Below, one piece after another: positions 6,589 through 63,579 of a stretch of 64,000 nucleotides of DNA. Origin of the DNA: Abyssibacter sp. (GTDB lineage Bacteria; Pseudomonadota; Alphaproteobacteria; Rhodobacterales; Rhodobacteraceae); NCBI GenBank assembly GCA_964220165.1, contig CAXPTW010000024.1, positions 200,843-264,842 on the forward strand. The letters run 5' to 3'. The translations under genes were made by a program, and so were the position numbers. Position 1 is the first letter of the stretch, and each line of letters starts with the position of its first letter. The notes under the pieces were generated by a model, which searched no databases, had not been told where the DNA came from, and saw only the letters and a list, made by a program, of their open reading frames with translations.

Positions 6589-8046
6589 ATGAGTATCTCG
6601 AATGCTCTCAACAATGCCCTGACGGGCCTGAACGCGGTATCGCGGGCGGCGGATGTGGTCGCCTCGAACATTTCGAACGCGATGACCGATGGATATGGCC
6701 GTCGGGACATTGAGCTCACGTCTCAACAAATCGGAAAAACCGGGGCCGGCGTCTCCGTGGTCGGGATCACGCGCTATTATGATCCGGTCACCACGGGCGC
6801 CAGACGCAACGCGGATGCCGAAGTGGCGCTGGAAGATACCCGCGCCCAATTTTTTGCCGCCTTCGCTGCGGCGATGGGGCGGGCGGATGATGAGGGCTCT
6901 ATCGCCGGGCGGATCACCGGACTTGAGACGGCGCTCATCGAGGCGTCGAGCCGCCCGGATTCCGAGACCCGGCTTGCGAGTGTTTTAGACGCGGCGGAAA
7001 ATCTCGCGCGTGACATCAATACCGCCTCCGACAGTGTTCAAAACATGCGCCGGGACGCGGATAAGGCCATCGGCCAAGAGGTCGATTTCCTGAATTCCGC
7101 CTTGCAACAGGTCGTCGATCTCAACGTCGCGATCCAACAACAAACGACCATGGGCTATGATGCCAACGCCCTGAAGGATCAGCGACAACAGCTCGTCGAT
7201 CAGATCGCGGAACTCATCCCCGTCAATGAGATCGAGCGCGACCACGGGATGATCGCCCTTTATACCGATGGCGGCGCGGCCCTGGTCGATTGGAAGGCAG
7301 CCACGCTTGAGTTCACGGCGACGCCAACGATCACACCGGATATGACGGTGGACAACGGGGCGTTGTCCGGTCTCACCATCAACGGACAGCCGGTGTCGAC
7401 ACTTGCGGAGCGTGGGGCCATCGCGGGGGGGAAACTCGCCGGCCTCTTTGAGGTTCGCGATGAGCTGACCCCCGCCGCGCAGGAAAATCTCGATGCCCTG
7501 GCCCGTGATCTCGTTGAGCGGTTCCAAAGCTCGGATGCCGACCCGACCTTGGCGCCCGGGGCTGCGGGCCTTTTCACCGACGGGGGCGTCGCATTTGATG
7601 CCACCAACGAGGAGGGTCTCGCCGGACGGCTGACGGTCAACGTGGCGGTCGATCCCGCTGCCGGGGGCGATTTGTGGAAATTGCGCGATGGGCTTGGCGC
7701 CACAGTTGAGGGAGACGTCGGCAATGCGTCCATCCTGACATCGCTTACCGAGGCCCTGCAGACAACGCGGGTGGCCTCCTCCGGGAGCATGACGTCGATT
7801 GAGCGCTCTGCACTTGGGTTCGCGTCCGACCTCTATTCCCTGTCTGAGACCAGCCGACTGACCGCAGAGGCCGAGCTGACCTATGCCGCCGCCCGCCAAG
7901 AATCGCTTCATTCCATCGAATTGGAGAATGGCGTCGACACGGATTACGAAATGCAGCGCCTTTTGGTGATCGAACAAACCTACGCCGCCAATGCGAAGGT
8001 GATCTCGACCATCCAGACGCTCATGGATCAGTTGATGGGGATCTAA
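6589..8046 (+). CDS. flgK: Flagellar hook-associated protein 1 FlgK
   Basis: 485 aa. The N-terminus MSISNALNNALTGLNAVSRAADVVASNISNAMTDGYGRR and C-terminus EQTYAANAKVISTIQTLMDQL match FlgK, as does its position after flgE. Confidence 0.85.
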   Translation: MSISNALNNALTGLNAVSRAADVVASNISNAMTDGYGRRDIELTSQQIGKTGAGVSVVGITRYYDPVTTGARRNADAEVALEDTRAQFFAAFAAAMGRADDEGSIAGRITGLETALIEASSRPDSETRLASVLDAAENLARDINTASDSVQNMRRDADKAIGQEVDFLNSALQQVVDLNVAIQQQTTMGYDANALKDQRQQLVDQIAELIPVNEIERDHGMIALYTDGGAALVDWKAATLEFTATPTITPDMTVDNGALSGLTINGQPVSTLAERGAIAGGKLAGLFEVRDELTPAAQENLDALARDLVERFQSSDADPTLAPGAAGLFTDGGVAFDATNEEGLAGRLTVNVAVDPAAGGDLWKLRDGLGATVEGDVGNASILTSLTEALQTTRVASSGSMTSIERSALGFASDLYSLSETSRLTAEAELTYAAARQESLHSIELENGVDTDYEMQRLLVIEQTYAANAKVISTIQTLMDQLMGI

Positions 8047-27508: not shown

Positions 27509-27588
27509 CGGGGCTTCTCCTCCGATCCATCTCAACCAAGGCTTAACCCTGATTCCTTTAGAAAGAGTTGTCGAAGGCGGAGGTATGG

Positions 27589-28911
27589 ATGAACGGCGTC
27601 GGATTCGAACTCTTAATGTCCGAGGTGGCTGCGGTGAAACCGGTCCATGTGGTCGGGCGTGTCGTCGAGGTCTCTCGCGGCGTGTTGAGCGTAGCGGGGT
27701 TGAGTGATGTGGCGGCCTTGGGCGACTTGGTTGAGATCGGTCACGGGACGACGATGCGGCGCGGTGAAGTGCTTCAGCTGAATAAATCCGTTGTGACGAT
27801 CTTGCCCGACGGCGGGGCGGATGGCCTCTCGATCGGGGACGCCGTCGCGCATATCGGGAAAAACACCATTGCCCCGGATGACAGTTGGATTGGCCGCGTG
27901 ATTGACCCCTTTGGGCGGGCAATCGACGGGCGCCCGATCCTCCAGGGCTGTGTGGAGCGACCCTTGCGCGGCACCCCCTTGAACCCGACCCAGCGACGCC
28001 CCCTTGGCGCGCGCTTGGAGACCGGGCTCGCTGTGTTCAACACGCTCCTGCCCATTGTTCGCGGGCAGAGGGTTGGACTTTTTGCCGGATCAGGCGTGGG
28101 AAAATCGACACTTCTGGCCAAGCTCGCAACCGGATTACAGGCCGATGTGGTCGTGATCGCGATGGTCGGTGAACGTGGCAGAGAGGTGCGCGAATTCATT
28201 GAGCGTGTCTTGGGGCCAAAGGGTATGGCACGGTCTGTTATTGTCGCCGCAACCTCCGATCAGTCGCCTATGGTGCGGCGGCGCTGCGCGTGGGCGGCGA
28301 TGTCCATTGCCGAACATTTTCGCGATAGCGGCAAGCATGTGCTGTTTCTGGCCGATTCTGTCACGCGTTTTGCCGAAGCGCATCGCGAGGTGGCTTTGGC
28401 GACCGGGGAGTCGAGCTCTTTGCGGGGCTTTCCGCCCTCAACCTCTCACCTCATCACCTCGCTTTGCGAACGGGCGGGGCCAGGGCTTGAGCATTCCGGA
28501 GATATTACGGCGGTGTTTTCGGTCCTCGTCGCCGGTTCCGATATGGAGGAGCCGATTGCAGACATTTTGCGTGGGGTGCTTGATGGGCATATCGTCTTGG
28601 ATCGTCAAATCGCGGAACGCGGACGTTTTCCTGCGATTGATCTTTTGCGCTCTGTGTCGCGGGCGCTCCCTCATGCGGCGAATGACGCGGAAAATGCTTT
28701 GATTGCCCGTGCGCGGCGGCTTTTGGGGACCTTTGATCGGACGGAAATGATGATTCAGGCCGGGCTTTACTCAAAAGGGACAGATGCGGCCATTGATGAG
28801 GCGATTGCAACCTGGCCTGCTCTTGATCGCTTTTTGGCCGAGGACGAACCCAAAGATGTCGCACAGAGTTTTGAGCGTCTCGCCGGCTGTTTCCAAAACC
28901 CGTCAGTCTGA
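27589..28911 (+). CDS. fliI: Flagellum-specific ATPase FliI
   Basis: Walker A GLFAGSGVGKSTLL and Walker B VLFLADSVTRFA, with F1-ATPase beta-like architecture. ATG 27589 is 5 nt after a GGAGG SD. The track used TTG 27568. Confidence 0.92.
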   Translation: MNGVGFELLMSEVAAVKPVHVVGRVVEVSRGVLSVAGLSDVAALGDLVEIGHGTTMRRGEVLQLNKSVVTILPDGGADGLSIGDAVAHIGKNTIAPDDSWIGRVIDPFGRAIDGRPILQGCVERPLRGTPLNPTQRRPLGARLETGLAVFNTLLPIVRGQRVGLFAGSGVGKSTLLAKLATGLQADVVVIAMVGERGREVREFIERVLGPKGMARSVIVAATSDQSPMVRRRCAWAAMSIAEHFRDSGKHVLFLADSVTRFAEAHREVALATGESSSLRGFPPSTSHLITSLCERAGPGLEHSGDITAVFSVLVAGSDMEEPIADILRGVLDGHIVLDRQIAERGRFPAIDLLRSVSRALPHAANDAENALIARARRLLGTFDRTEMMIQAGLYSKGTDAAIDEAIATWPALDRFLAEDEPKDVAQSFERLAGCFQNPSV

Positions 28912-56963: not shown

Positions 56964-56987
56964 TGGTGCCCAGAAGAGAAATCGAAC
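56964..56987 (-). other. 24-nt tRNA 3'-end remnant (T-loop to CCA); candidate att core of the adjacent island
   Basis: The minus strand reads GTTCGATTTCTCTTCTGGGCACCA, i.e. TTCGATT T-loop, TCTCT T-stem strand, TCTGGGC acceptor strand, then A and CCA. No complementary 5' half lies upstream, so it is not an intact tRNA gene. The acceptor sequence resembles tRNA-Leu, but this is tentative. Confidence 0.45.
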
Positions 56988-57120
56988 ACGCGTTTCACCT
57001 CATTCCAAGATGATCTTTTATCTATCTATTTTCATTACTTAAATAAAAATACCTGTACCGACCTATTCCATTTTAACCCGCCCTACCCCACATATTAGGG
57101 TGGACTCAGGGGTGGATAAA

Positions 57121-58275
57121 ATGACGAGGGAATTGAACAAGCTTTCGGCTCTTCAGATCAAAAATGCGCCACCGGGGAAGTACTCTGACGGCGGCGGATT
57201 GTGGCTGCACAAACGGGCCGATGGAGGTGGTCAGTGGTTCCTGCGGGTGACCATACACGGGCGTCGTCGCGAGATGGGGCTTGGGAGTCTGACCTATGTC
57301 ACACTCAAGGAAGCGCGCGAGGAAGCCAACCGGTGGCGCACCGTCGTGCGCAAAGGCAAAGATCCGATCAAGGAGCGGGACCGCGAGAGGCGTCTCGCGG
57401 CGCGGGCTGCGCCGACGCTCGAGATGGTCGCGCTGGAAGCTTTTGAGGCGCGCAAGGCCGAGCTCAAGAATGACGGCAAATCCGGTCGGTGGTTTTCGCC
57501 GCTGGAGCTGCATGTGCTGCCGAAGATCGAGCGCGTCCCTGTGGAAGAGATCGACCAGCAGGACATCAAGAACACGCTTGCCCCGATTTGGCATGAGAAA
57601 GCCGAGACGGCGCGCAAGGCGATGAACCGGCTGGGGATCGTGATGCGGCACGCGGCAGCCATGGGGCTTGATGTTGATATCCAGGCGACCGAGAAGGCAA
57701 AAGCCCTGCTTGGCAAATCCCGCCACAAGGCACAGCACGTTGCCGCGATGGACTGGCGCGAGGTGCCAGCCTTCTATGCGGGCCTCAATGAGGGATCAAT
57801 TACTCACCTCGCACTGCGGCTCTTGATCCTGACAGCTGCACGCTCCGGAGAGATCCGCTTCTGTCATCTCGACGAGATCGAGGGCGATGTTTGGACCTTG
57901 TCGTCAGAGCGCATGAAGACCGGCAACGAACATCGAATCCCGCTCTCGGCGGAGGCTCTCAAGGTCATCGAGCAAGCGAAGCCATTTGCGCGTGACGGCT
58001 TCCTGTTCCCGAGCGTGCGCAAGGGCGTCATCTCCGACGCCACCATGGCGCGCTACATGGAGCGCAAGGGGCTCGAGGCGCGGCCCCACGGGTTCCGCTC
58101 CAGTTTCCGCACCTGGTGTGCCGAAGAGACCGACACGCCACGCGAGGTGGCTGAGATGGCCCTGGCCCATATTGTTGGCGGAGCGGTCGAACGGGCGTAT
58201 CGTCGAACAGACTATCTCGATCAGCGGAGGGAGTTGATGGAGAAATGGGCGGCGCATGTGGGAGGTGAAACATGA
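57121..58275 (+). CDS. int: P4-type tyrosine integrase
   Basis: The N-terminal arm-binding region LSALQIKNAPPGKYSDGGGLWLHKRADGGGQWFLRVTIHGRRREMGLGS is the DUF4102-type P4 integrase signature. Catalytic residues are in LLILTAARSGE, HGFRSSFRTW and ...ERAYRRTDY. Confidence 0.9.
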   Translation: MTRELNKLSALQIKNAPPGKYSDGGGLWLHKRADGGGQWFLRVTIHGRRREMGLGSLTYVTLKEAREEANRWRTVVRKGKDPIKERDRERRLAARAAPTLEMVALEAFEARKAELKNDGKSGRWFSPLELHVLPKIERVPVEEIDQQDIKNTLAPIWHEKAETARKAMNRLGIVMRHAAAMGLDVDIQATEKAKALLGKSRHKAQHVAAMDWREVPAFYAGLNEGSITHLALRLLILTAARSGEIRFCHLDEIEGDVWTLSSERMKTGNEHRIPLSAEALKVIEQAKPFARDGFLFPSVRKGVISDATMARYMERKGLEARPHGFRSSFRTWCAEETDTPREVAEMALAHIVGGAVERAYRRTDYLDQRRELMEKWAAHVGGET

Positions 58276-59036
58276 GCAGCGAAATTGATGACGCGAACTC
58301 AAGCTCTAGGCAGGACCCTGTCGGTCTCTGGCAAGAGATCGTTGGCGACCCCCTGATAAACGCTCTCAAATGGATTGACCTATGGCGCAAGGAAGCGACT
58401 GGGGGTCGAACGAGAGAGCTCACATATCAAGAGTTCTGTTTTCGCGCGAACGGCCACCTGACATTTGATGGGAAAGTCTATCGCCTTACCGAGGGCCTTG
58501 CGGAGGTCATCGCCCAGATGGGGAGCGAAGGACTCATAAGGGCTGATAGCAAAACTGCGTTAGCCAAGAATCTCGTCCCTGTGCCGGCTCTTCACTACGA
58601 GTTGGCCCGTCACATCGCGCGGACGAATCGTGCCGTGGGATTGGAACTACCTAAGAGTTTAAGGGTCTATGCCGATGACACAGCGCAAGATCTCCAACGT
58701 GGCAAGGGTGGAGATCAAGAGAAGCGCATTCTCTTCCGACATCTCGCGTGGTGGGCCACAGACCGAGCCGTAAAGCTAGGGCTTAAGGTTGATAGAAGCC
58801 GAGCCTCGAATGAGGCAACTCAATGTGCGGCCCAACTCGTCGCGGACGCATTCTTTGCCGCGAGCCTTGGCAATGAGTTCACATACAATTCGGTGATTGC
58901 CGCCTGGGAGGCGCATAGACACACAGGTAGCGACCAGAGGAAATTAAAAATCAAAATCCACAACGCGGCCTATCAACGGCATTTTTTCGAGCTTGATGAA
59001 TTGGTTGGCAAACTATCTCTGTTTGAAACGCGCTAA
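58272..59036 (+). CDS. Hypothetical protein, translationally coupled to int
   Basis: 254 aa. ATGA overlap with the int stop. No TM segment and no recognisable motif. Confidence 0.6.
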   Translation: MSSEIDDANSSSRQDPVGLWQEIVGDPLINALKWIDLWRKEATGGRTRELTYQEFCFRANGHLTFDGKVYRLTEGLAEVIAQMGSEGLIRADSKTALAKNLVPVPALHYELARHIARTNRAVGLELPKSLRVYADDTAQDLQRGKGGDQEKRILFRHLAWWATDRAVKLGLKVDRSRASNEATQCAAQLVADAFFAASLGNEFTYNSVIAAWEAHRHTGSDQRKLKIKIHNAAYQRHFFELDELVGKLSLFETR

Positions 59037-59125: not shown

Positions 59126-59311
59126 ATGCACCTACTGACCCTGAATGATCTGCGCGCAGTCCTCGGGAATCGAGGACGGACCACCATCTATCGCGACGTT
59201 GCCGCCGGGCGGCTTCCCGAGCCGATCAAGATTGGTGGCCGGATCTATTGGCGTGAGGACGACATCGAAGCTGCTTTGACCGCGCTCAAAGGAGACAAAA
59301 ATGCTGACTAA
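59126..59311 (+). CDS. alpA: AlpA-family HTH regulator / excisionase-like protein
   Basis: 61 aa. The pattern LTLNDLRAVLGNRGRTTIYRDVAAGRLPEPIKIGGRIYWREDDIEAAL is the AlpA/Phage_AlpA (MerR-like excisionase) pattern. Its 3' end overlaps the next ORF's start. Confidence 0.8.
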   Translation: MHLLTLNDLRAVLGNRGRTTIYRDVAAGRLPEPIKIGGRIYWREDDIEAALTALKGDKNAD

Positions 59312-62300
59312 GGATACCATCTTCCGCCTCTCGACCTTTTGCAAAGCCGATGGTCCGCTTAGCAAGTCCATCGCGCTTGGAGACGATGGTCAGCCGCACT
59401 CAAACGCGGATGACTGCAGAATGTCGCATGGCACCGCAATGAACTTCGGTTTCCAGAACCTGACGGAACTCGCGGATCATATCAACGATCTGGATAGTGT
59501 TCATGCGCTCTCGCTGGGCACGATTGACGGTCAAGACGACAATGAGCTTGTGAGGCTTGTGACGGAGGCCAGGCTCACAGCCTATGGCGATGCGATTGCT
59601 CGAACCAAAGAATACTTTGCCTTCGAGGAGGGAGAGCCAGGCTTGCTTCTCATCGACTTCGACAAAAAGGGGATTTCTCCAGAAATCCTTGAGAGGATCG
59701 AAGCGGCAGGAGGTCTCTGGGCTGTTCTTTGCGAGGTCTTCCCGGACCTCATACAGGCTGGGTATATCCGGAGGGCCTCGACCTCGGCCGGCCTTTACAA
59801 CTCGGAGACCGGGGAAAAATTTCCTGGATCCGGAGGCGAGCATATCTACCTGGCGGTTCAAGACGCCTCAGACATCCCTCGTGCAACAAAGGTGTTGCAC
59901 CAACGGCTTTGGTTGGCCGGATTGGGATGGATCTGGATTGGACGCATCGGACAATTGCTGGAGCGGTCAGTCATCGACCAGTCGGTCGGCTCGCCGGAAC
60001 GGTTGGTGTTTGAAGGCGCCCCCGTCCTGGAACCGCCCCTTGCACAGTCACAAAAAGCCCGTCGTGCTATCGCCGTTGAGGGGCGGTTGATTGATAGCAA
60101 AGCGGTGTTTCCCGATCTCACGCAACAGGAGGGCGCGCGGTATCGGGCCAAGGTTCAAGCCGAAAAAGCGGCTTTGAAACCAGAGGCGAAGACCCGCCAA
60201 TCCCGCGCAGACAAGGGCTTGGCAAAGAAACTCGCGCGCCGCTCTGGCCTCACGGATGAACAAGCTCGCGCTCAAATCAGCCGGCGTCATCAGGGCGAGC
60301 TTTTGCCCCTACACCCGCTCGAGTTCGATGATCGCGCGTTGGGGAAGGTCACAGTCGGCGACGTTCTTATGGATCCGGATCGCTTCATTGAGCAGACGCT
60401 TGCGGACCCGCTCGAAGGCGTTGGGTACGGGCGCTGCAAGGCGAAACTCTTCAGACGGCCCGATGGCTCGCTTTGGATCAACTCCTTTGCGCATGGCGGT
60501 GCGCAGTATGACCTCCGTCATGATGCCGGCTCCGTTCGCGCGGCGCTTGAAGGCCTGGAGAGGGAGACAAACCCGAACGATATCGTCGCGGCCTTGGCGT
60601 CGGCGCATCTTGAGACTAGCGAAGAGGAGGAATTGCTTCGCGCCATAAAGGACGCGACAGGAGTGACCCTGGGTGAGCTGCGCACATTGCTGAAACGCGC
60701 GAAGCGCTTCCGCTCCAACGTTCGGCGCTCGGACGCAAACACGCGACTGGCAGAGGAAGACCCTCGCGTCGCTCTGCCAGCACCGGCCGCAAGTGCAGAA
60801 CTGACCGATGTCGTGACGCAGATTGACGAGATCCTCGGGAACGTAGTCGCTGATATCCCGCCCTTCCGGACGCTTGCGTCTCAACTGGCGTACGTCGATC
60901 GCCGCCCACCAAGCAAGCTGCATCAATTGGTCTCGGAAGGAGAGGAACAGCCTCCAGCACCAGATCAGCTCACAATCCAGGTTGCCGGAGAACCCGAGGC
61001 GACGATGATGATTGAAGAGCATATCCGGTTCGAAATTGAAAACGATGAAGACAGCATGCAATCCGCACCCAAGCGCCTGTCACTGCCGTTTGTCAGAGCC
61101 TATATGGGGTGGAAAGAGTCGCAACTTCCGAGGGTTCGAGGAATATCGACACTACCTCTCGTCCTGCCCGGAGGCGTGTTAAAGGCCATGCAAGGTCTAG
61201 ACCGAGAACTGGAACTCATCTTTGAGCTCGATGAAGAGTTGGTCAGACGGCTCGAGAAGACACATGCGGTGTCACTTCAGGAGGCGAAAAAAGCCTATGA
61301 CTGGCTCCTGAACAACTGGTTGGTTGACGTGGACGCAACTGAGGAAGGTAAGGCGATCGTCATCGCGCTTGCGCTGACGGTGATCGAAAGACACCTTCTG
61401 GCCGAGTTCCCTGCGTTCTTCGTCTCCGCGGCGCAGAGAGGAAGTGGCAAAACCACCGTCATCAACATGATCTCGACGGCGTTGAGCGGTGTCATGGCGT
61501 CAGCCGCCTCTTGGTCCTTCGATGAGGAGGAACGGCGCAAGGCGATCTTCTCGTACCTTCGTGAAGGCTCGCCTTTGGTGACCTATGACAACATTCCACG
61601 CGGGTCCGCGATAAGCTGCCCGACGCTCGAGCGCGTCCTGACAGCGCCCGAACTAAAGGATCGCGTTCTCGGCGAAAATCGAACGGAAACGGTGCCAGCT
61701 TCCACCGTGATTGCGTTTACAGGCAACAACATTCACCCGAAAGGAGACATGGCCTCACGTTCGCTGGTTGCGAACCTCGTGTCGGATCGAACCGATCCGG
61801 AAAATCGGGAGTTCGAGCATGAGGACCCGATCGGTTGGACACGAGAAAATCGCAACGCGATCCTGCAGCGCCTGTATCAGATCCTGCTGCTCGCACGTGA
61901 CAAGCCGAACCGATCCAAAACACGGTTCAAAACGTGGTGGAATTTGATCGGCCATCCCTTGGAGATGATCTCCGGGGTGGATTTTGAGGATCTGTTCCGC
62001 GCCAACGATGTCTTCGATGAGGAGGCCCAGGGAGCTGCGGAGTTTATCAGCCTCATGAAAAGGTACCTCGAGATGGACGGCAAATGTAGTCGTGAGTTCT
62101 CGGCATCTGAGGTAGCCAAACTTGCTGATGACAAGTGGCATGGCTCAGGTTCTCGATCCGCAGACCCAAACGAGCCAGACCCCTCTGCGCTCAAGTCGGC
62201 GCTCGAGGCGGCCAGTGGGCGGCCGTTCTCCGGCGGAACGGTGACCGCACATCGTGTGGCGCGCAAGCTTGCCGCCATCGAGGACCGCCCTGTGGAGGTG

Positions 62301-62375
62301 GACGGCCAGATGCTTCAACTGAAAGTCATCCGAGACCACGAAGGAAACCGGTACAGGATTGAACAGCTCGGTTGA
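59301..62375 (+). CDS. Putative replication protein: AEP (prim-pol)-like N-terminal domain fused to SF3/P4-family P-loop helicase domain
   Basis: 1024 aa with an AAGGAGA SD. Motifs seen: IDFD (aa 117-120), GSGGEHIYLAV (aa 176-186), VIDQSV (aa 224-229), Walker A AQRGSGKTTV (aa 711-720), Walker B-like LVTYDN (aa 759-764) and AFTGNNIHPKGDMASRSLV (aa 805-823), which resembles the P4/D5 primase-helicase C-terminal domain. Confidence 0.6.
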   Translation: MLTKDTIFRLSTFCKADGPLSKSIALGDDGQPHSNADDCRMSHGTAMNFGFQNLTELADHINDLDSVHALSLGTIDGQDDNELVRLVTEARLTAYGDAIARTKEYFAFEEGEPGLLLIDFDKKGISPEILERIEAAGGLWAVLCEVFPDLIQAGYIRRASTSAGLYNSETGEKFPGSGGEHIYLAVQDASDIPRATKVLHQRLWLAGLGWIWIGRIGQLLERSVIDQSVGSPERLVFEGAPVLEPPLAQSQKARRAIAVEGRLIDSKAVFPDLTQQEGARYRAKVQAEKAALKPEAKTRQSRADKGLAKKLARRSGLTDEQARAQISRRHQGELLPLHPLEFDDRALGKVTVGDVLMDPDRFIEQTLADPLEGVGYGRCKAKLFRRPDGSLWINSFAHGGAQYDLRHDAGSVRAALEGLERETNPNDIVAALASAHLETSEEEELLRAIKDATGVTLGELRTLLKRAKRFRSNVRRSDANTRLAEEDPRVALPAPAASAELTDVVTQIDEILGNVVADIPPFRTLASQLAYVDRRPPSKLHQLVSEGEEQPPAPDQLTIQVAGEPEATMMIEEHIRFEIENDEDSMQSAPKRLSLPFVRAYMGWKESQLPRVRGISTLPLVLPGGVLKAMQGLDRELELIFELDEELVRRLEKTHAVSLQEAKKAYDWLLNNWLVDVDATEEGKAIVIALALTVIERHLLAEFPAFFVSAAQRGSGKTTVINMISTALSGVMASAASWSFDEEERRKAIFSYLREGSPLVTYDNIPRGSAISCPTLERVLTAPELKDRVLGENRTETVPASTVIAFTGNNIHPKGDMASRSLVANLVSDRTDPENREFEHEDPIGWTRENRNAILQRLYQILLLARDKPNRSKTRFKTWWNLIGHPLEMISGVDFEDLFRANDVFDEEAQGAAEFISLMKRYLEMDGKCSREFSASEVAKLADDKWHGSGSRSADPNEPDPSALKSALEAASGRPFSGGTVTAHRVARKLAAIEDRPVEVDGQMLQLKVIRDHEGNRYRIEQLG

Positions 62376-62396
62376 GCGAAGGTCAAAGTGAAACTG

Positions 62397-62430
62397 GCGC
62401 ACCCGGGCTTGCCTGGGTGCGCTTTTGTTT
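62397..62430 (+). terminator. Rho-independent terminator after the primase-helicase gene
   Basis: GCGCACCC(GGG)-CTTG-(CCT)GGGTGCGC stem followed by TTTTGTTT, starting 22 nt after the stop. Confidence 0.7.
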
Positions 62431-62433
62431 GGG

Positions 62434-62556
62434 CGTCGGGATTGTCGGGATCCAAACTGCCGCCCGCGCAGGCCTCAAAAAAATTAGAACTAAGAGATAT
62501 ATTTTATTTTTTTTCCACATTTTAGAAGGAGGATATCAATCCCGACAATCCCGACG
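62434..62556. repeat. 18-bp perfect inverted repeat (four GTCGGGAT octamers, two per arm) flanking an 87-bp AT-rich spacer; candidate island replication origin
   Basis: CGTCGGGATTGTCGGGAT at 62434-62451 and its exact reverse complement ATCCCGACAATCCCGACG at 62539-62556. The spacer contains CAAAAAAATTAGAACTAAGAGATATATTTTATTTTTTTTCCACATTTTAGAAGGAGGATAT. Confidence 0.5.
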
Positions 62557-62705
62557 GGGGTGTATGATTGACGCGCATCAGTGCCTTGGTACCCTCTCCG
62601 CAGCAGGAACGGCTTGCTGAAGGTGGGCCGCGAAGTGGGCCCACAACTGAGCGGATGTGCAGTGTCACAAACACCGAAAAAAAATCGTCAAAAACTCTTC
62701 AGTAT

Positions 62706-62718
62706 GTTATATTATAAC
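62706..62718. promoter_or_regulatory. AT-rich palindrome GTTATA-T-TATAAC upstream of the Zn-ribbon ORF (promoter/operator candidate)
   Basis: Read from the sequence. It lies 23 nt upstream of ATG 62741 and contains a TATAAT-like hexamer on both strands. Confidence 0.3.
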
Positions 62719-62740: not shown

Positions 62741-63346
62741 ATGCCCCCGCGTTCAAAGAGACCACTGGCCGATACGATGCTGCAACTGAGCATTCGACAG
62801 GTTGTCGAGGCTGGACTGCTGAATGACAAAGGCATCGTCTCGATCGCCAAAACACCCCAGGGCTTGGACTTCCCTGCCATCGTTGATGGTCATGGCGACT
62901 ATTTGATCATTACCGTGCATGGCGGCTGGGGGAACACATGTGAGGCTGTCGCAGTGACCGAGACCCCCTGTCACTTTGGCGGGACGCGCCATTGGTTCCT
63001 TTGTCCCTCCTGCGCGCGCCAGTGTGGGGTGCTTTACATCGGGCGTGAAGCGATCGCCTGCCGCACATGTCATGACCTCGCCTATGCGTCTCAATACGAG
63101 GCTCCGCGGGAGCGCATGCTGCGGCAGCTCAAGAAAATCCGCAAAGCCATCGGGGCCGACATGGACATCTACGGCCCGTTCAACCCGCCCCCAAAAGGCA
63201 TGTCGAAGAAGAGATGGCTGGAGATGATCGAGGAGTTCGAGGCCCTGCGTGCGGCCTATTGGCACGAGTGTGAGCGCCCTCGCATGTGGCGCAATGATGC
63301 GCCGAAGACGAGCGAGTTCCGGAAAGGTGGTTCTTCTGCGTCTTAG
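62741..63346 (+). CDS. Hypothetical protein with four-Cys zinc ribbon
   Basis: Start at ATG 62741 (MPPRSKRPL...), with a GAGGA SD 7 nt upstream. Zinc ribbon in CHFGGTRHWFLCPSCARQCGVLYIGREAIACRTCHDLAYASQYE (CxxC...CxxC). The track's 5' extension to 62657 crosses the AT-rich promoter-like region. Confidence 0.65.
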   Translation: MPPRSKRPLADTMLQLSIRQVVEAGLLNDKGIVSIAKTPQGLDFPAIVDGHGDYLIITVHGGWGNTCEAVAVTETPCHFGGTRHWFLCPSCARQCGVLYIGREAIACRTCHDLAYASQYEAPRERMLRQLKKIRKAIGADMDIYGPFNPPPKGMSKKRWLEMIEEFEALRAAYWHECERPRMWRNDAPKTSEFRKGGSSAS

Positions 63347-63579
63347 CGAGACGTGTCCGCCGATGTTCTCGAGGTGAGCCCTGCCCAGCGCGCCACTTGC
63401 CAGATCCCGCGGATCGGCCTACGATTCCCCCTGCATCAAGAGAAAGGCTCCGGCCTTCACCAACCTGCTCAACCCGGCAAGGTGGTCTCCCGCAAGGGGA
63501 TGCGGTCGGACCGACAACGAATGGGCAGACCTCATCAACGACCTCAACCCCTGGCCGGTCTCAACACGGAGATCGAACA

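What the first reader, a model, noticed from the sequence alone, without database searches (positions are those of the whole stretch)
62434..62556. Iteron-like 18-bp perfect inverted repeat around an AT-rich core directly after the primase-helicase gene: candidate origin of replication
An 18-bp arm, CGTCGGGATTGTCGGGAT (62434-62451), starts 59 nt after the stop of the 1024-aa gene and 4 nt after its terminator. Its exact reverse complement lies at 62539-62556. Each arm is two tandem GTCGGGAT octamers with a 9-bp period, so four octamers are arranged as two direct copies facing two inverted copies. The 87-bp spacer contains about 60 bp of nearly pure A/T in an otherwise ~60% GC context. Two iteron sets flanking an AT-rich unwinding region, placed immediately 3' of the rep gene, is the arrangement described for staphylococcal pathogenicity island origins. 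It is also conceptually similar to the P4 ori iterons. There are three alternatives. (a) A 123-bp MITE-like element with 18-bp terminal inverted repeats; GGG flanks both ends, which could be a 3-bp target duplication. (b) An operator array for the downstream Zn-ribbon gene. (c) A large cruciform or hairpin.
Basis: partly seen in the sequence, partly recalled or inferred. Interest (0 to 1): 0.7.

Follow-up and report, generated by a model that had tools for sequence, protein, structure and literature searches.

The report
Replication origin of a mobile island
The inverted repeat just after the 1024-aa primase-helicase gene is very probably the replication origin of a small integrated mobile element; this layout is already known from staphylococcal and E. 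coli phage-satellite islands, but here it belongs to a large, uncharacterised family of replication proteins.

Summary
Two perfect 18-nt arms (62434-62451 and 62539-62556) each hold two GTCGGGAT units 9 bp apart. They enclose 87 nt, of which 62 nt have 21% G+C, the lowest in the 64-kb window.

The structure is not a MITE. It is a family-wide cis element tied to the adjacent gene. In 35 of 52 non-redundant relatives, 2-4 tandem 9-bp repeats, a spacer of mostly 74-97 nt and 2-4 inverted copies lie just after the rep stop. That is about 60 times more often than elsewhere. The architecture is constant, but the repeat sequence differs between loci.

The same layout follows distant homologues on two small plasmids. 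One of them, pA32H2 (6.5 kb), has no annotated integrase and no HTH protein was detected on it.

The gene product models as a primase-polymerase fused to a superfamily-3-type helicase. Its fold matches include the SaPI5 and SaPI1 Rep proteins. The island reads int, an ORF overlapping int, alpA-like HTH gene, rep, then this element, as in PICI/PICMI satellites.

This matches the published SaPI/PICI origin: at least two iterons on each side of an AT-rich region, pointing in opposite directions, immediately 3' of rep. Binding by Rep and replication itself are inferred, not shown. Verdict: new member of a known kind, of moderate interest.

The parts
62434..62451 (+). Left iteron set: two GTCGGGAT units (62435-62442, 62444-62451), 9-bp period
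   Evidence: Identical in the C. litoreus copy. Equivalent sets lie after rep in relatives.
62452..62476 (.). G+C-rich part of the spacer (76% G+C), ending in GGCCTCA. A related AGCCTCA motif lies next to the left iterons in many relatives.
62477..62538 (.). AT-rich core (21% G+C, A7 and T8 runs), the presumed DNA-unwinding region. It contains a DnaA-box-like TTTTCCACA at 62511-62519.
   Evidence: lowest G+C in the window. Spacers of relatives are also below their locus G+C. All three differences from the C. litoreus copy fall here.
62539..62556 (-). Right iteron set: two GTCGGGAT units on the minus strand (62539-62546, 62548-62555)
62396..62423 (+). Terminator-like hairpin of the rep operon (12 pairs, T-run follows)
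   Evidence: Conserved in C. litoreus. A similar hairpin precedes the repeats in L003.
59301..62375 (+). rep: 1024-aa primase-polymerase (DxD 119/121, H181) fused to a P-loop helicase (GSGKT 714-718 in this protein, GGGKT in the family consensus; DN 763/764; TGNN 807-810) and a C-terminal domain of unknown fold. It is the presumed initiator acting on the repeats.
59126..59311 (+). alpA-like HTH_17 gene; overlaps the rep start by 11 nt
58272..59036 (+). 254-aa ORF whose start overlaps the int stop as ATGA (the arrangement of 'iolg' in PICMI satellites). A different ORF occupies this position in C. litoreus.
   Evidence: PMC10803314
57100..58275 (+). Tyrosine integrase with an arm-binding domain (P4 type)
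56964..56989 (.). Left junction of the island. A tRNA-3'-end-like fragment (TGGTGC...GAACAC) lies here, and similarity to the other island copies begins here.
62741..63346 (+). 201-aa Cys-rich (Zn-ribbon-like) ORF with its own promoter-like region (62685-62713). It is island cargo, not part of the origin.

Best explanation
The 123-bp element is the vegetative replication origin (ori) of a roughly 7-kb integrated mobile island. The island reads int, an ORF overlapping int, alpA-like HTH gene, rep, ori, then cargo.

Proposed mechanism:
1. The island excises and circularises.
2. The 1024-aa primase-polymerase/helicase encoded just upstream recognises the 9-bp iterons.
3. Because the two iteron sets face each other, two helicase rings are loaded in opposite orientation on either side of the 62-bp, 21% G+C core.
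4. The core melts, and the N-terminal primase-polymerase domain makes the first primers.
5. Host polymerase extends them in both directions.

Shown here:
- the structure itself;
- its fixed position after rep across a diverged family;
- its constant geometry with variable repeat sequence;
- its presence on small plasmids that encode a related Rep;
- the primase-helicase nature of the protein.

Inferred by analogy with SaPI/PICI, P4 and pRN1: that Rep is the protein that binds the repeats, that melting happens in the AT-rich core, and that replication is bidirectional.
For: (1) Position and enrichment. A blind scan for 2+2 inverted tandem 8-mers at 9-bp period found 37 hits in the 37.7 kb around rep stops, in 35 of 52 non-redundant loci. 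It found 6 hits in 378 kb elsewhere in the same loci, 15 in 868 kb of unrelated genomes, and only this one in the window. With a stricter threshold, no hit lay upstream of rep.

(2) Constant geometry, variable sequence. There are 2-4 units per arm. The period is 9 bp in all but three loci. The spacer is 74-97 nt in 24 of 30 distinct elements. Units differ between loci: GTCGGGAT, CCGGGATTG, GGGAATGT, GCATGGTTT, TGCGAAGTG, TGCGCAGTG, CGGGAAAGA, GGCCTATTG and others.

(3) The repeats do not follow the integrase. The CGGGAT type is kept in L003 (Int 37% identical) and L129 (Int 24%), with Rep 52-57% identical.

(4) The element is internal to the island. In L129 it lies 5.8 kb from the tRNA-Met end, with more than 3.8 kb of sequence after it.

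(5) Plasmids. pA32H2 (6,547 bp, four annotated genes) has no annotated integrase, and no HTH domain was detected in its genes. It carries GGTAGGGAT x3, then 93 nt, then x3 inverted, about 100 nt after its rep homologue. pMNOD06 has the same layout 11 nt after a Rep that shares only the helicase and C-terminal half with this one.

(6) IMG/VR contigs L210-L216 show it too.

(7) Protein. The AlphaFold model has mean pLDDT 92. Foldseek hits include ASFV PrimPol (E 2e-8), the NrS-1 helicase region, SaPI5 primase-helicase 7ola (1e-5) and SaPI1 PriRep1 with dsDNA 7pds (3e-5). PHROG 'DNA primase' scores 1.7e-39.

(8) Micro-evolution. In the 92%-identical C. litoreus island, both arms are unchanged (36 of 36 nt), and the 3 differences all lie in the AT-rich core.

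(9) Literature. [quoted passage not shown] The pRN1 origin lies downstream of the primase-polymerase/SF3 gene orf904, after a terminator (PMC4234260).
Against: - There is no experimental binding or replication data for any member of this family.
- The C-terminal 120 aa, where SaPI Rep and P4 alpha carry a winged-helix origin-binding domain, gave no significant PDB fold match (best E 0.89). The DNA-reading part of Rep is therefore unidentified.
- Correlation between Rep regions and repeat identity was weak.
- 17 of 52 relatives gave no hit in the scan. These include the two with the closest integrase and AlpA (L002, L004; Rep 58-61% identical), which have no such repeats anywhere in 19 kb.
- An HTH_17 gene accompanies rep in most loci, including pMNOD06. 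It is excluded as the binder only by pA32H2.
- The source genome could not be scanned for further copies. The genome-contig scan used a pattern that was too short and returned chance hits.
Confidence: 0.8

Rival explanations
1. The repeats are binding sites for another island protein, such as the AlpA-like HTH regulator. They would serve in regulation, for example as an operator or insulator between the rep operon and the cargo genes, and not in replication.
For: An HTH_17 gene precedes rep in the window, L002-L004, L129 and pMNOD06. A promoter-like match on the minus strand overlaps the right arm.
Against: pA32H2 has the full 3+3 structure, but no HTH protein was detected on it. The 61-aa ORF before its rep is a hydrophobic peptide, and its other two genes are a Sel1-repeat protein and a 97-aa ORF with no Pfam hit. 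The genes downstream of the repeats are not conserved across the family. Known AlpA sites lie at the alpA promoter (PMC6092414).
Confidence: 0.07
2. It is another cis site of a mobile element that uses symmetric protein binding, such as a packaging (pac) signal for a helper phage, a partition site or a multimer-resolution site.
For: The island resembles phage satellites, which need a packaging signal. Some relatives occur in IMG/VR viral contigs.
Against: A packaging site should match the helper's terminase, not vary from island to island at a fixed place after rep. No terminase, ParB or resolvase gene is present in the minimal islands. The AT-rich core between opposed repeats and the tight link to a helicase gene are the origin signature (PMC9371898, PMC6092414).
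Confidence: 0.05
3. Integrase arm-type sites, or an intact attP.
For: The integrase has an arm-binding domain. attP sites have opposed arm sites around an AT-rich core (own knowledge of lambda and P2 attP).
Against: The same CGGGAT repeats occur with integrases only 24-37% identical. Islands with 78-80% identical integrases lack them. pA32H2 has no annotated integrase. The element is internal to integrated islands next to tRNA genes, and its spacer has no tRNA-like core. A different repeat (CCTGTTCCA-like) lies upstream of int.
Confidence: 0.02
4. A MITE-like insertion with 18-bp terminal inverted repeats and a GGG target duplication.
For: Terminal inverted repeats, small size and GGG on both sides in the window.
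Against: The structure is at the same place after rep in dozens of diverged loci, with different repeat sequences. The flanks are GAG and GGC in the C. litoreus copy. There is one copy in 64 kb, none in 7.3 Gb of plasmids and none in viral contigs.
Confidence: 0.01

Closest known systems
SaPI / PICI replication origins (Staphylococcus SaPI1, SaPIbov1, SaPI5; E. coli EcCICFT073)
   Same: The origin lies immediately 3' of rep or pri-rep. It has two sets of short iterons pointing in opposite directions around an AT-rich region. The initiator is a self-loading helicase, sometimes fused to a primase. The helicase part of the model matches SaPI5 PriRep and SaPI1 Rep structures. The Gram-negative PICI gene order, int, alpA, pri-rep, ori, transcribed in one direction, is the same (PMC9371898, PMC6092414).
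   Different: The Rep has no Pfam or NCBIfam family and no PDB sequence match. Its primase domain is of the archaeo-eukaryotic primase-polymerase kind. The iterons are 8-9 bp at a strict 9-bp period, only 2-4 per side, against 5-6-nt repeats and 6-12 in total in SaPIs. No winged-helix C-terminal domain could be confirmed. Phage induction and packaging are unknown.
pRN1 ORF904 replicon (Sulfolobus) and the BIP-1-type phage replicons
   Same: The Rep is a primase-polymerase fused to a superfamily-3 helicase and a C-terminal domain. The origin lies downstream of the rep gene after a terminator and can form a stem-loop (PMC4234260). Here the strand folds at -27 kcal/mol, z = -3.9.
   Different: The pRN1 origin is described as a 100-nt stem-loop without iteron structure. 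Here the stem consists only of the iteron sets and the 87-nt loop is unpaired. The host is bacterial and the element is integrative.
Satellite phage P4 alpha protein with ori and crr
   Same: A multifunctional primase-helicase with a C-terminal origin-binding domain that recognises octamer repeats. P4-type integrase and an AlpA/Vis-like HTH gene are also present (own knowledge; summarised in PMC4234260 and PMC6092414).
   Different: The P4 primase is of the bacterial Toprim type. P4 needs two separated sites (ori and crr), not one symmetric site after the gene.
PICMI satellites of Vibrionaceae
   Same: A minimal island of about 6-7 kb with int, an ORF overlapping int by ATGA, alpA, a primase and a few unknown genes (PMC10803314).
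   Different: PICMI primases are DUF3987/DUF5906 proteins and the islands integrate next to fis. Neither holds here. No origin was described in the PICMI passages read.
SV40 and papillomavirus origins (large T antigen, E1)
   Same: Superfamily-3 helicase initiators assemble as two opposed hexamers on inverted binding sites next to AT-rich DNA (own knowledge).
   Different: In the viral origins the inverted sites are adjacent and the AT tract lies to one side. Here the sites are about 87 bp apart with the AT tract between them.

Membership tests
SaPI/PICI-type origin | Located immediately 3' of the replication initiator gene | tested here: met
   The left arm starts 59 nt after the rep stop. 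The same holds in 35 of 52 relatives.
SaPI/PICI-type origin | At least two iterons on each side of an AT-rich region, the two sets pointing in opposite directions | tested here: met
   Two plus two GTCGGGAT units around a 62-nt core of 21% G+C.
SaPI/PICI-type origin | Iterons specifically bound by the cognate Rep through a C-terminal winged-helix domain | tested here: inconclusive
   Binding cannot be tested with these tools. The C-terminal 120-aa model (pLDDT 91.6) has no significant PDB fold match. Repeat sequences differ between Rep lineages, but the reading domain was not located.
SaPI/PICI-type origin | rep plus ori are sufficient for autonomous replication | not testable with these tools
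   Indirect support only: two small plasmids carry a related rep followed by the same structure.
SaPI/PICI-type origin | The initiator is a hexameric helicase related to SaPI Rep | tested here: met
   Foldseek: 7ola (SaPI5) E 1.3e-5, 7pds (SaPI1 PriRep1 with dsDNA) E 3.1e-5; Walker A and B motifs are conserved. The hexameric state was not tested.
PICI / PICMI phage satellite | int at one end, then alpA, pri-rep and ori, transcribed in one direction | tested here: met
PICI / PICMI phage satellite | Induction by, and packaging into particles of, a helper phage | not testable with these tools
   No capsid, terminase or interference genes were recognised. A few relatives are in IMG/VR.
PICI / PICMI phage satellite | PICMI: DUF3987/DUF5906 primase and integration next to fis | tested here: not met
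   rep has no Pfam hit. The junction abuts a tRNA-like fragment, not fis.
MITE | Target-site duplication flanking the terminal inverted repeats | tested here: not met
   GGG on both sides here, but GAG and GGC in the C. litoreus copy.
MITE | Many dispersed copies at unrelated loci | tested here: inconclusive
   One copy in 64 kb, none in the plasmid or viral collections. The whole source genome was not scanned. The fixed position after rep in relatives argues strongly against dispersal.
pRN1-type origin | Primase-polymerase plus SF3 helicase Rep, with the origin downstream of the gene after a terminator | tested here: met
   PMC4234260
pRN1-type origin | Long, continuously paired stem-loop of about 100 nt, without iterons | tested here: not met
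   Only the 18-nt arms pair; the 87-nt loop is largely unpaired. Iterons are present.
P4 ori/crr | Toprim-type primase in the alpha protein and two separated iteron sites | tested here: not met
   The primase domain is of the primase-polymerase kind. There is a single symmetric site.

The most novel reading that the evidence does not exclude
The element marks a large family of minimal integrative replicons, and related small plasmids, that I did not find described. It has more than 800 Rep homologues, mostly in Alphaproteobacteria and soil or marine metagenomes. The primase-polymerase/helicase Rep has no Pfam or NCBIfam model, so such islands would probably be missed by profile-based satellite searches (not tested). 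The origins follow a strict rule of 2-4 units at 9-bp period, about 85 bp of spacer, then 2-4 inverted units. Because dozens of natural Rep/iteron pairs are available, including Reps 83-86% identical with different iterons, the family could serve to work out how such initiators read DNA and how incompatibility groups arise. The islands may be PICMI-like phage satellites of Rhodobacteraceae.
Probability: 0.45. Interest if true: 0.55.

Novelty: new member of a known kind. Interest (0 to 1): 0.4.

Why it matters
It gives a specific, testable origin and initiator pair for a widespread but unannotated family of mobile elements. It extends the 'rep followed by opposed iterons around an AT-rich core' design from staphylococcal and enterobacterial satellites to alphaproteobacterial islands and to small plasmids of two proteobacterial classes. 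The many natural variants, with the same geometry but different 9-bp words, form a ready-made data set on initiator specificity. The rep-ori cassette could also serve as a compact replicon for Rhodobacteraceae. It does not reveal a new principle.

Tried and rejected
(1) Genome-collection scan with the 16-mer ATCCCGACAATCCCGA. The pattern was too short for 596 Gb. It returned 120 single hits in unrelated phyla, as chance predicts, and none had the inverted arrangement.

(2) Sequence searches for rep gave nothing: Pfam, NCBIfam and a profile search of PDB sequences.

(3) C-terminal domain. A separate model was searched against PDB folds with no significant match, so a winged helix is not claimed.

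(4) Locating the iteron-reading region. I correlated sliding-window Rep identity with iteron identity. Only weak peaks appeared, at aa 271-360 and 961-1020.

(5) Attachment sites. No direct repeats flanking the island were found in the window, L002, L004 or L129. The left junction is defined by comparison between copies. The right end is only bounded at about 64158, beyond the window.

(6) DnaA box. TTTTCCACA in the core fits TTWTNCACA, but it is absent from the L003 and L129 spacers, so it is not used as evidence.

(7) The Shine-Dalgarno-like AAGGAGGA at 62526-62533 has no start codon at the right distance and is not conserved in relatives. It was rejected as a gene start.

(8) Literature on Psychrobacter plasmid replicons contained nothing on this Rep type.

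Full report
**Observation**

The window holds a perfect 18-nt inverted repeat. The arms are 62434-62451 (CGTCGGGATTGTCGGGAT) and 62539-62556, with 87 nt between them. Each arm is two GTCGGGAT units 9 bp apart.

It is the only perfect inverted repeat of at least 15 nt within 300 nt in the 64 kb. The 18-mer has no other credible copy. Four of the five GTCGGGAT occurrences in the window are here.

The 1024-aa ORF ends at 62375. A 12-pair terminator-like hairpin follows at 62396-62423, and the left arm starts 59 nt after the stop.

The spacer has two parts: 25 nt at 76% G+C, then 62 nt at 21% G+C (62477-62538). That second part is the lowest-G+C stretch in the window, whose mean is 58%. 'Nearly pure A/T' is slightly generous.

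**Context**

Upstream, all on the + strand, lie:
- a tyrosine integrase with an arm-binding domain (57100-58275);
- a 254-aa ORF whose ATG overlaps the int stop as ATGA (58272-58275);
- an HTH_17/AlpA-like gene (59126-59311) that overlaps the rep start by 11 nt;
- rep itself.

rep has no Pfam, NCBIfam or PDB sequence match. It does hit PHROG 'DNA primase' with its N-terminal third (E 1.7e-39) and primase/polymerase PHROGs with its C-terminal part.

In an alignment of 100 homologues, the invariant residues include D119 and D121, H181, a Walker A motif (G716 K717; T718 nearly invariant), D763 N764 and T807 G808 N809.

An AlphaFold model (mean pLDDT 92) matches:
- ASFV PrimPol (E 2e-8);
- the NrS-1 helicase region;
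- SaPI5 primase-helicase (7ola, 1e-5);
- SaPI1 PriRep1 bound to dsDNA (7pds, 3e-5);
- mpox E5.

The 'primase-helicase' label is therefore justified.

**Comparative test**

The protein belongs to a family of more than 800 proteins of 1020-1050 aa. Nearly all are unnamed; the few that carry an organism name are alphaproteobacterial, and most come from metagenomes. Closer relatives sit in the same int, small ORF, HTH, rep arrangement. Two of them lie next to tRNA genes.

I collected 80 metagenomic loci and examined the DNA after each rep stop. Most carry 2-4 tandem repeats, a spacer, and the same repeats inverted.

A blind scan of whole loci looked for two tandem 8-mers at 9-bp period facing two inverted copies 50-220 nt away, with at most 4 mismatches.

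| Region scanned | Hits | Sequence scanned |
|---|---|---|
| -70 to +700 nt around rep stops (35 of 52 non-redundant loci) | 37 | 37.7 kb |
| Elsewhere in the same loci | 6 | 378 kb |
| Unrelated genome loci | 15 | 868 kb |
| This window | 1 (this element) | 64 kb |

Several of the 'elsewhere' hits lie just before my estimated stop codon and are probably real members.

The geometry is constant:
- the period is 9 bp in all but three loci;
- the spacer is 74-97 nt in 24 of 30 distinct elements;
- the whole element measures 115-146 nt;
- spacer G+C is below the locus G+C.

The repeat word varies between loci: GTCGGGAT, CCGGGATTG, GGGAATGT, GCATGGTTT, TGCGAAGTG, TGCGCAGTG, TCCACGAAG, CGGGAAAGA, GGCCTATTG, GAGGTTTGC, TGCCGGCTA and others. 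A fixed architecture at a fixed place with a drifting recognition word is what binding sites of a co-evolving, element-encoded protein look like. It is not what a transposable insertion looks like.

**Which protein binds the repeats?**

The integrase is unlikely. The CGGGAT word is shared by the window, L003 (Int 37% identical) and L129 (Int 24%), whose Reps are 52-57% identical. The two loci with 78-80% identical integrases have no repeats at all.

In L129 the element is internal: 5.8 kb from the tRNA-Met end, with more than 3.8 kb of sequence after it. It therefore does not sit at an att site.

The clearest case is the 6,547-bp Psychrobacter plasmid pA32H2. Its only large gene is a homologue of rep (30% identity over the primase domain, 27% over the helicase domain). 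About 100 nt after that gene's stop comes GGTAGGGAT x3, then 93 nt, then three inverted copies. The plasmid has no annotated integrase, and no HTH domain was found in its other genes.

Methylobacterium nodulans pMNOD06 has a Rep with a different N-terminal domain (Pfam Prim-Pol) but a homologous helicase and C-terminal half. Eleven nt after its stop, three G-rich units, an AT-rich spacer and three inverted units follow. This suggests that the structure goes with the helicase half of the protein.

IMG/VR contigs L210-L216 show the structure as well.

A second copy of this very island lies in Celeribacter litoreus, about 92% identical and in a different genomic context. Both arms are unchanged there. 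Its three differences from the window all fall in the AT-rich core. The flanking GGG is not conserved.

**Mechanism**

The layout matches the published description of SaPI origins. [quoted passage not shown] The iterons are bound by the C-terminal winged-helix domain of a self-loading helicase, and two hexamers are thought to load on either side (PMC9371898).

For pRN1, whose Rep has the same primase-polymerase plus SF3 design, the origin is a structure just after the gene and its terminator (PMC4234260).

I therefore propose the following. After excision, Rep binds the four octamers. Two rings assemble facing each other across the 62-bp AT-rich core and melt it. The primase-polymerase domain primes synthesis, and host enzymes carry out bidirectional replication.

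The anatomy, the family-wide conservation, the plasmid context and the protein class are shown here. Binding by Rep, the site of melting and the direction of replication are inferred.

**Weak points**

- The C-terminal 120 aa model well (pLDDT 91.6) but have no significant fold match, so the origin-reading domain is unknown.
- My attempt to locate that domain by correlating Rep identity with iteron identity was inconclusive. Reps 83-86% identical can carry different words.
- Seventeen of 52 loci gave no hit. L002 and L004 clearly lack the repeats and carry an extra 135-aa ORF before rep.
- The genome-wide copy count in the source organism was not obtained, because my one genome-collection scan used a pattern that was too short.
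- No copy exists in the plasmid or viral collections.

**Rivals**

- A MITE is rejected on position, lack of a target duplication and lack of other copies.
- Integrase arm sites or an attP are rejected on the integrase dissociation, the internal position and the plasmid without an annotated integrase.
- An operator for the downstream Zn-ribbon gene is unlikely, because that gene is absent from most loci that have the repeats, and it has its own promoter-like region with a conserved palindrome.
- Binding by the AlpA-like protein, or a role in packaging or partition, cannot be fully excluded without experiments. Neither fits pA32H2 or the strict link to a helicase gene.
- The strand can fold into a hairpin (-27 kcal/mol, z = -3.9). 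That follows from the symmetry and is not a separate explanation.

**Verdict**

The element is a new member of a known kind of origin, attached to an uncharacterised Rep family and to an island that resembles PICI/PICMI satellites. Interest is moderate (0.4).

Noticed in passing
window 63428-63531 (and L221 14137-14240): A SAM-I/IV riboswitch (RF01725, 65 bits) lies inside the mobile island. It sits upstream of a 199-aa ORF (start 63581, running past the window end) that has a Tat-like N-terminus and no Pfam family. It is conserved in the C. litoreus copy of the island. A riboswitch as cargo of a small mobile element is unusual.
   Followed up: partly
window 58272-58275 and 59301-59311: The int stop and the start of the next ORF overlap as ATGA, the arrangement of 'iolg' in PICMI satellites. 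The HTH gene overlaps the rep start by 11 nt. The ORF after int (254 aa) is replaced by an unrelated 212-aa ORF in the otherwise 92%-identical C. litoreus island.
   Followed up: partly
window 56964-56989; L002 5529-5555; L004 5240-5266; L221 about 7705-7735: The left junction of the island abuts a fragment resembling a tRNA 3' end on the minus strand (TGGTGC, about 16 nt, GAACAC). The fragment differs in each genome. No intact tRNA was found in any of these loci, and no right-end repeat was found.
   Followed up: partly
L002 5400-11400; L004 4900-11900: Two close relatives (Rep 58-61%, Int 78-80% identical) lack the inverted iterons altogether and carry an extra 135-aa ORF between the HTH gene and rep. 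Either their origin is different or they are decayed elements.
   Followed up: partly
L141, L143, L149, L152, L182, L206 and others, directly inside the left iteron set: A motif like TTTACAGCCTCA is conserved next to the left iterons in many distant family members even though the iterons differ. The window and L129 have GGCCTCA before the A-run. It may be a second conserved origin element.
   Followed up: no
window 62706-62718: Perfect palindrome GTTATAtTATAAC within the promoter-like region (62685-62713) of the 201-aa Cys-rich ORF. It is conserved in C. litoreus although the DNA just upstream has diverged. It is possibly an operator.
   Followed up: no
window 62511-62519: TTTTCCACA in the AT-rich core fits the DnaA-box consensus TTWTNCACA. 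It is kept in C. litoreus but absent from the spacers of L003 and L129.
   Followed up: partly
L221 14951-23075: In C. litoreus the island is followed by an SRA/McrA-like gene, an SNase gene, a UvrD-helicase plus AAA_21 pair (Gabija-like) and a second integrase. This looks like a neighbouring defence island.
   Followed up: no
L207 (pA32H2) 2297-2354: The small Psychrobacter plasmid has a second repeat array, CACAAGCAAT-like units at a 10-bp period, far from rep. Its function is unknown.
   Followed up: no
window 27524-27540 / 27726-27742: The only other inverted repeat of 15 nt or more in the window: 17-nt arms, 88% complementary, 185 nt apart.
   Followed up: no
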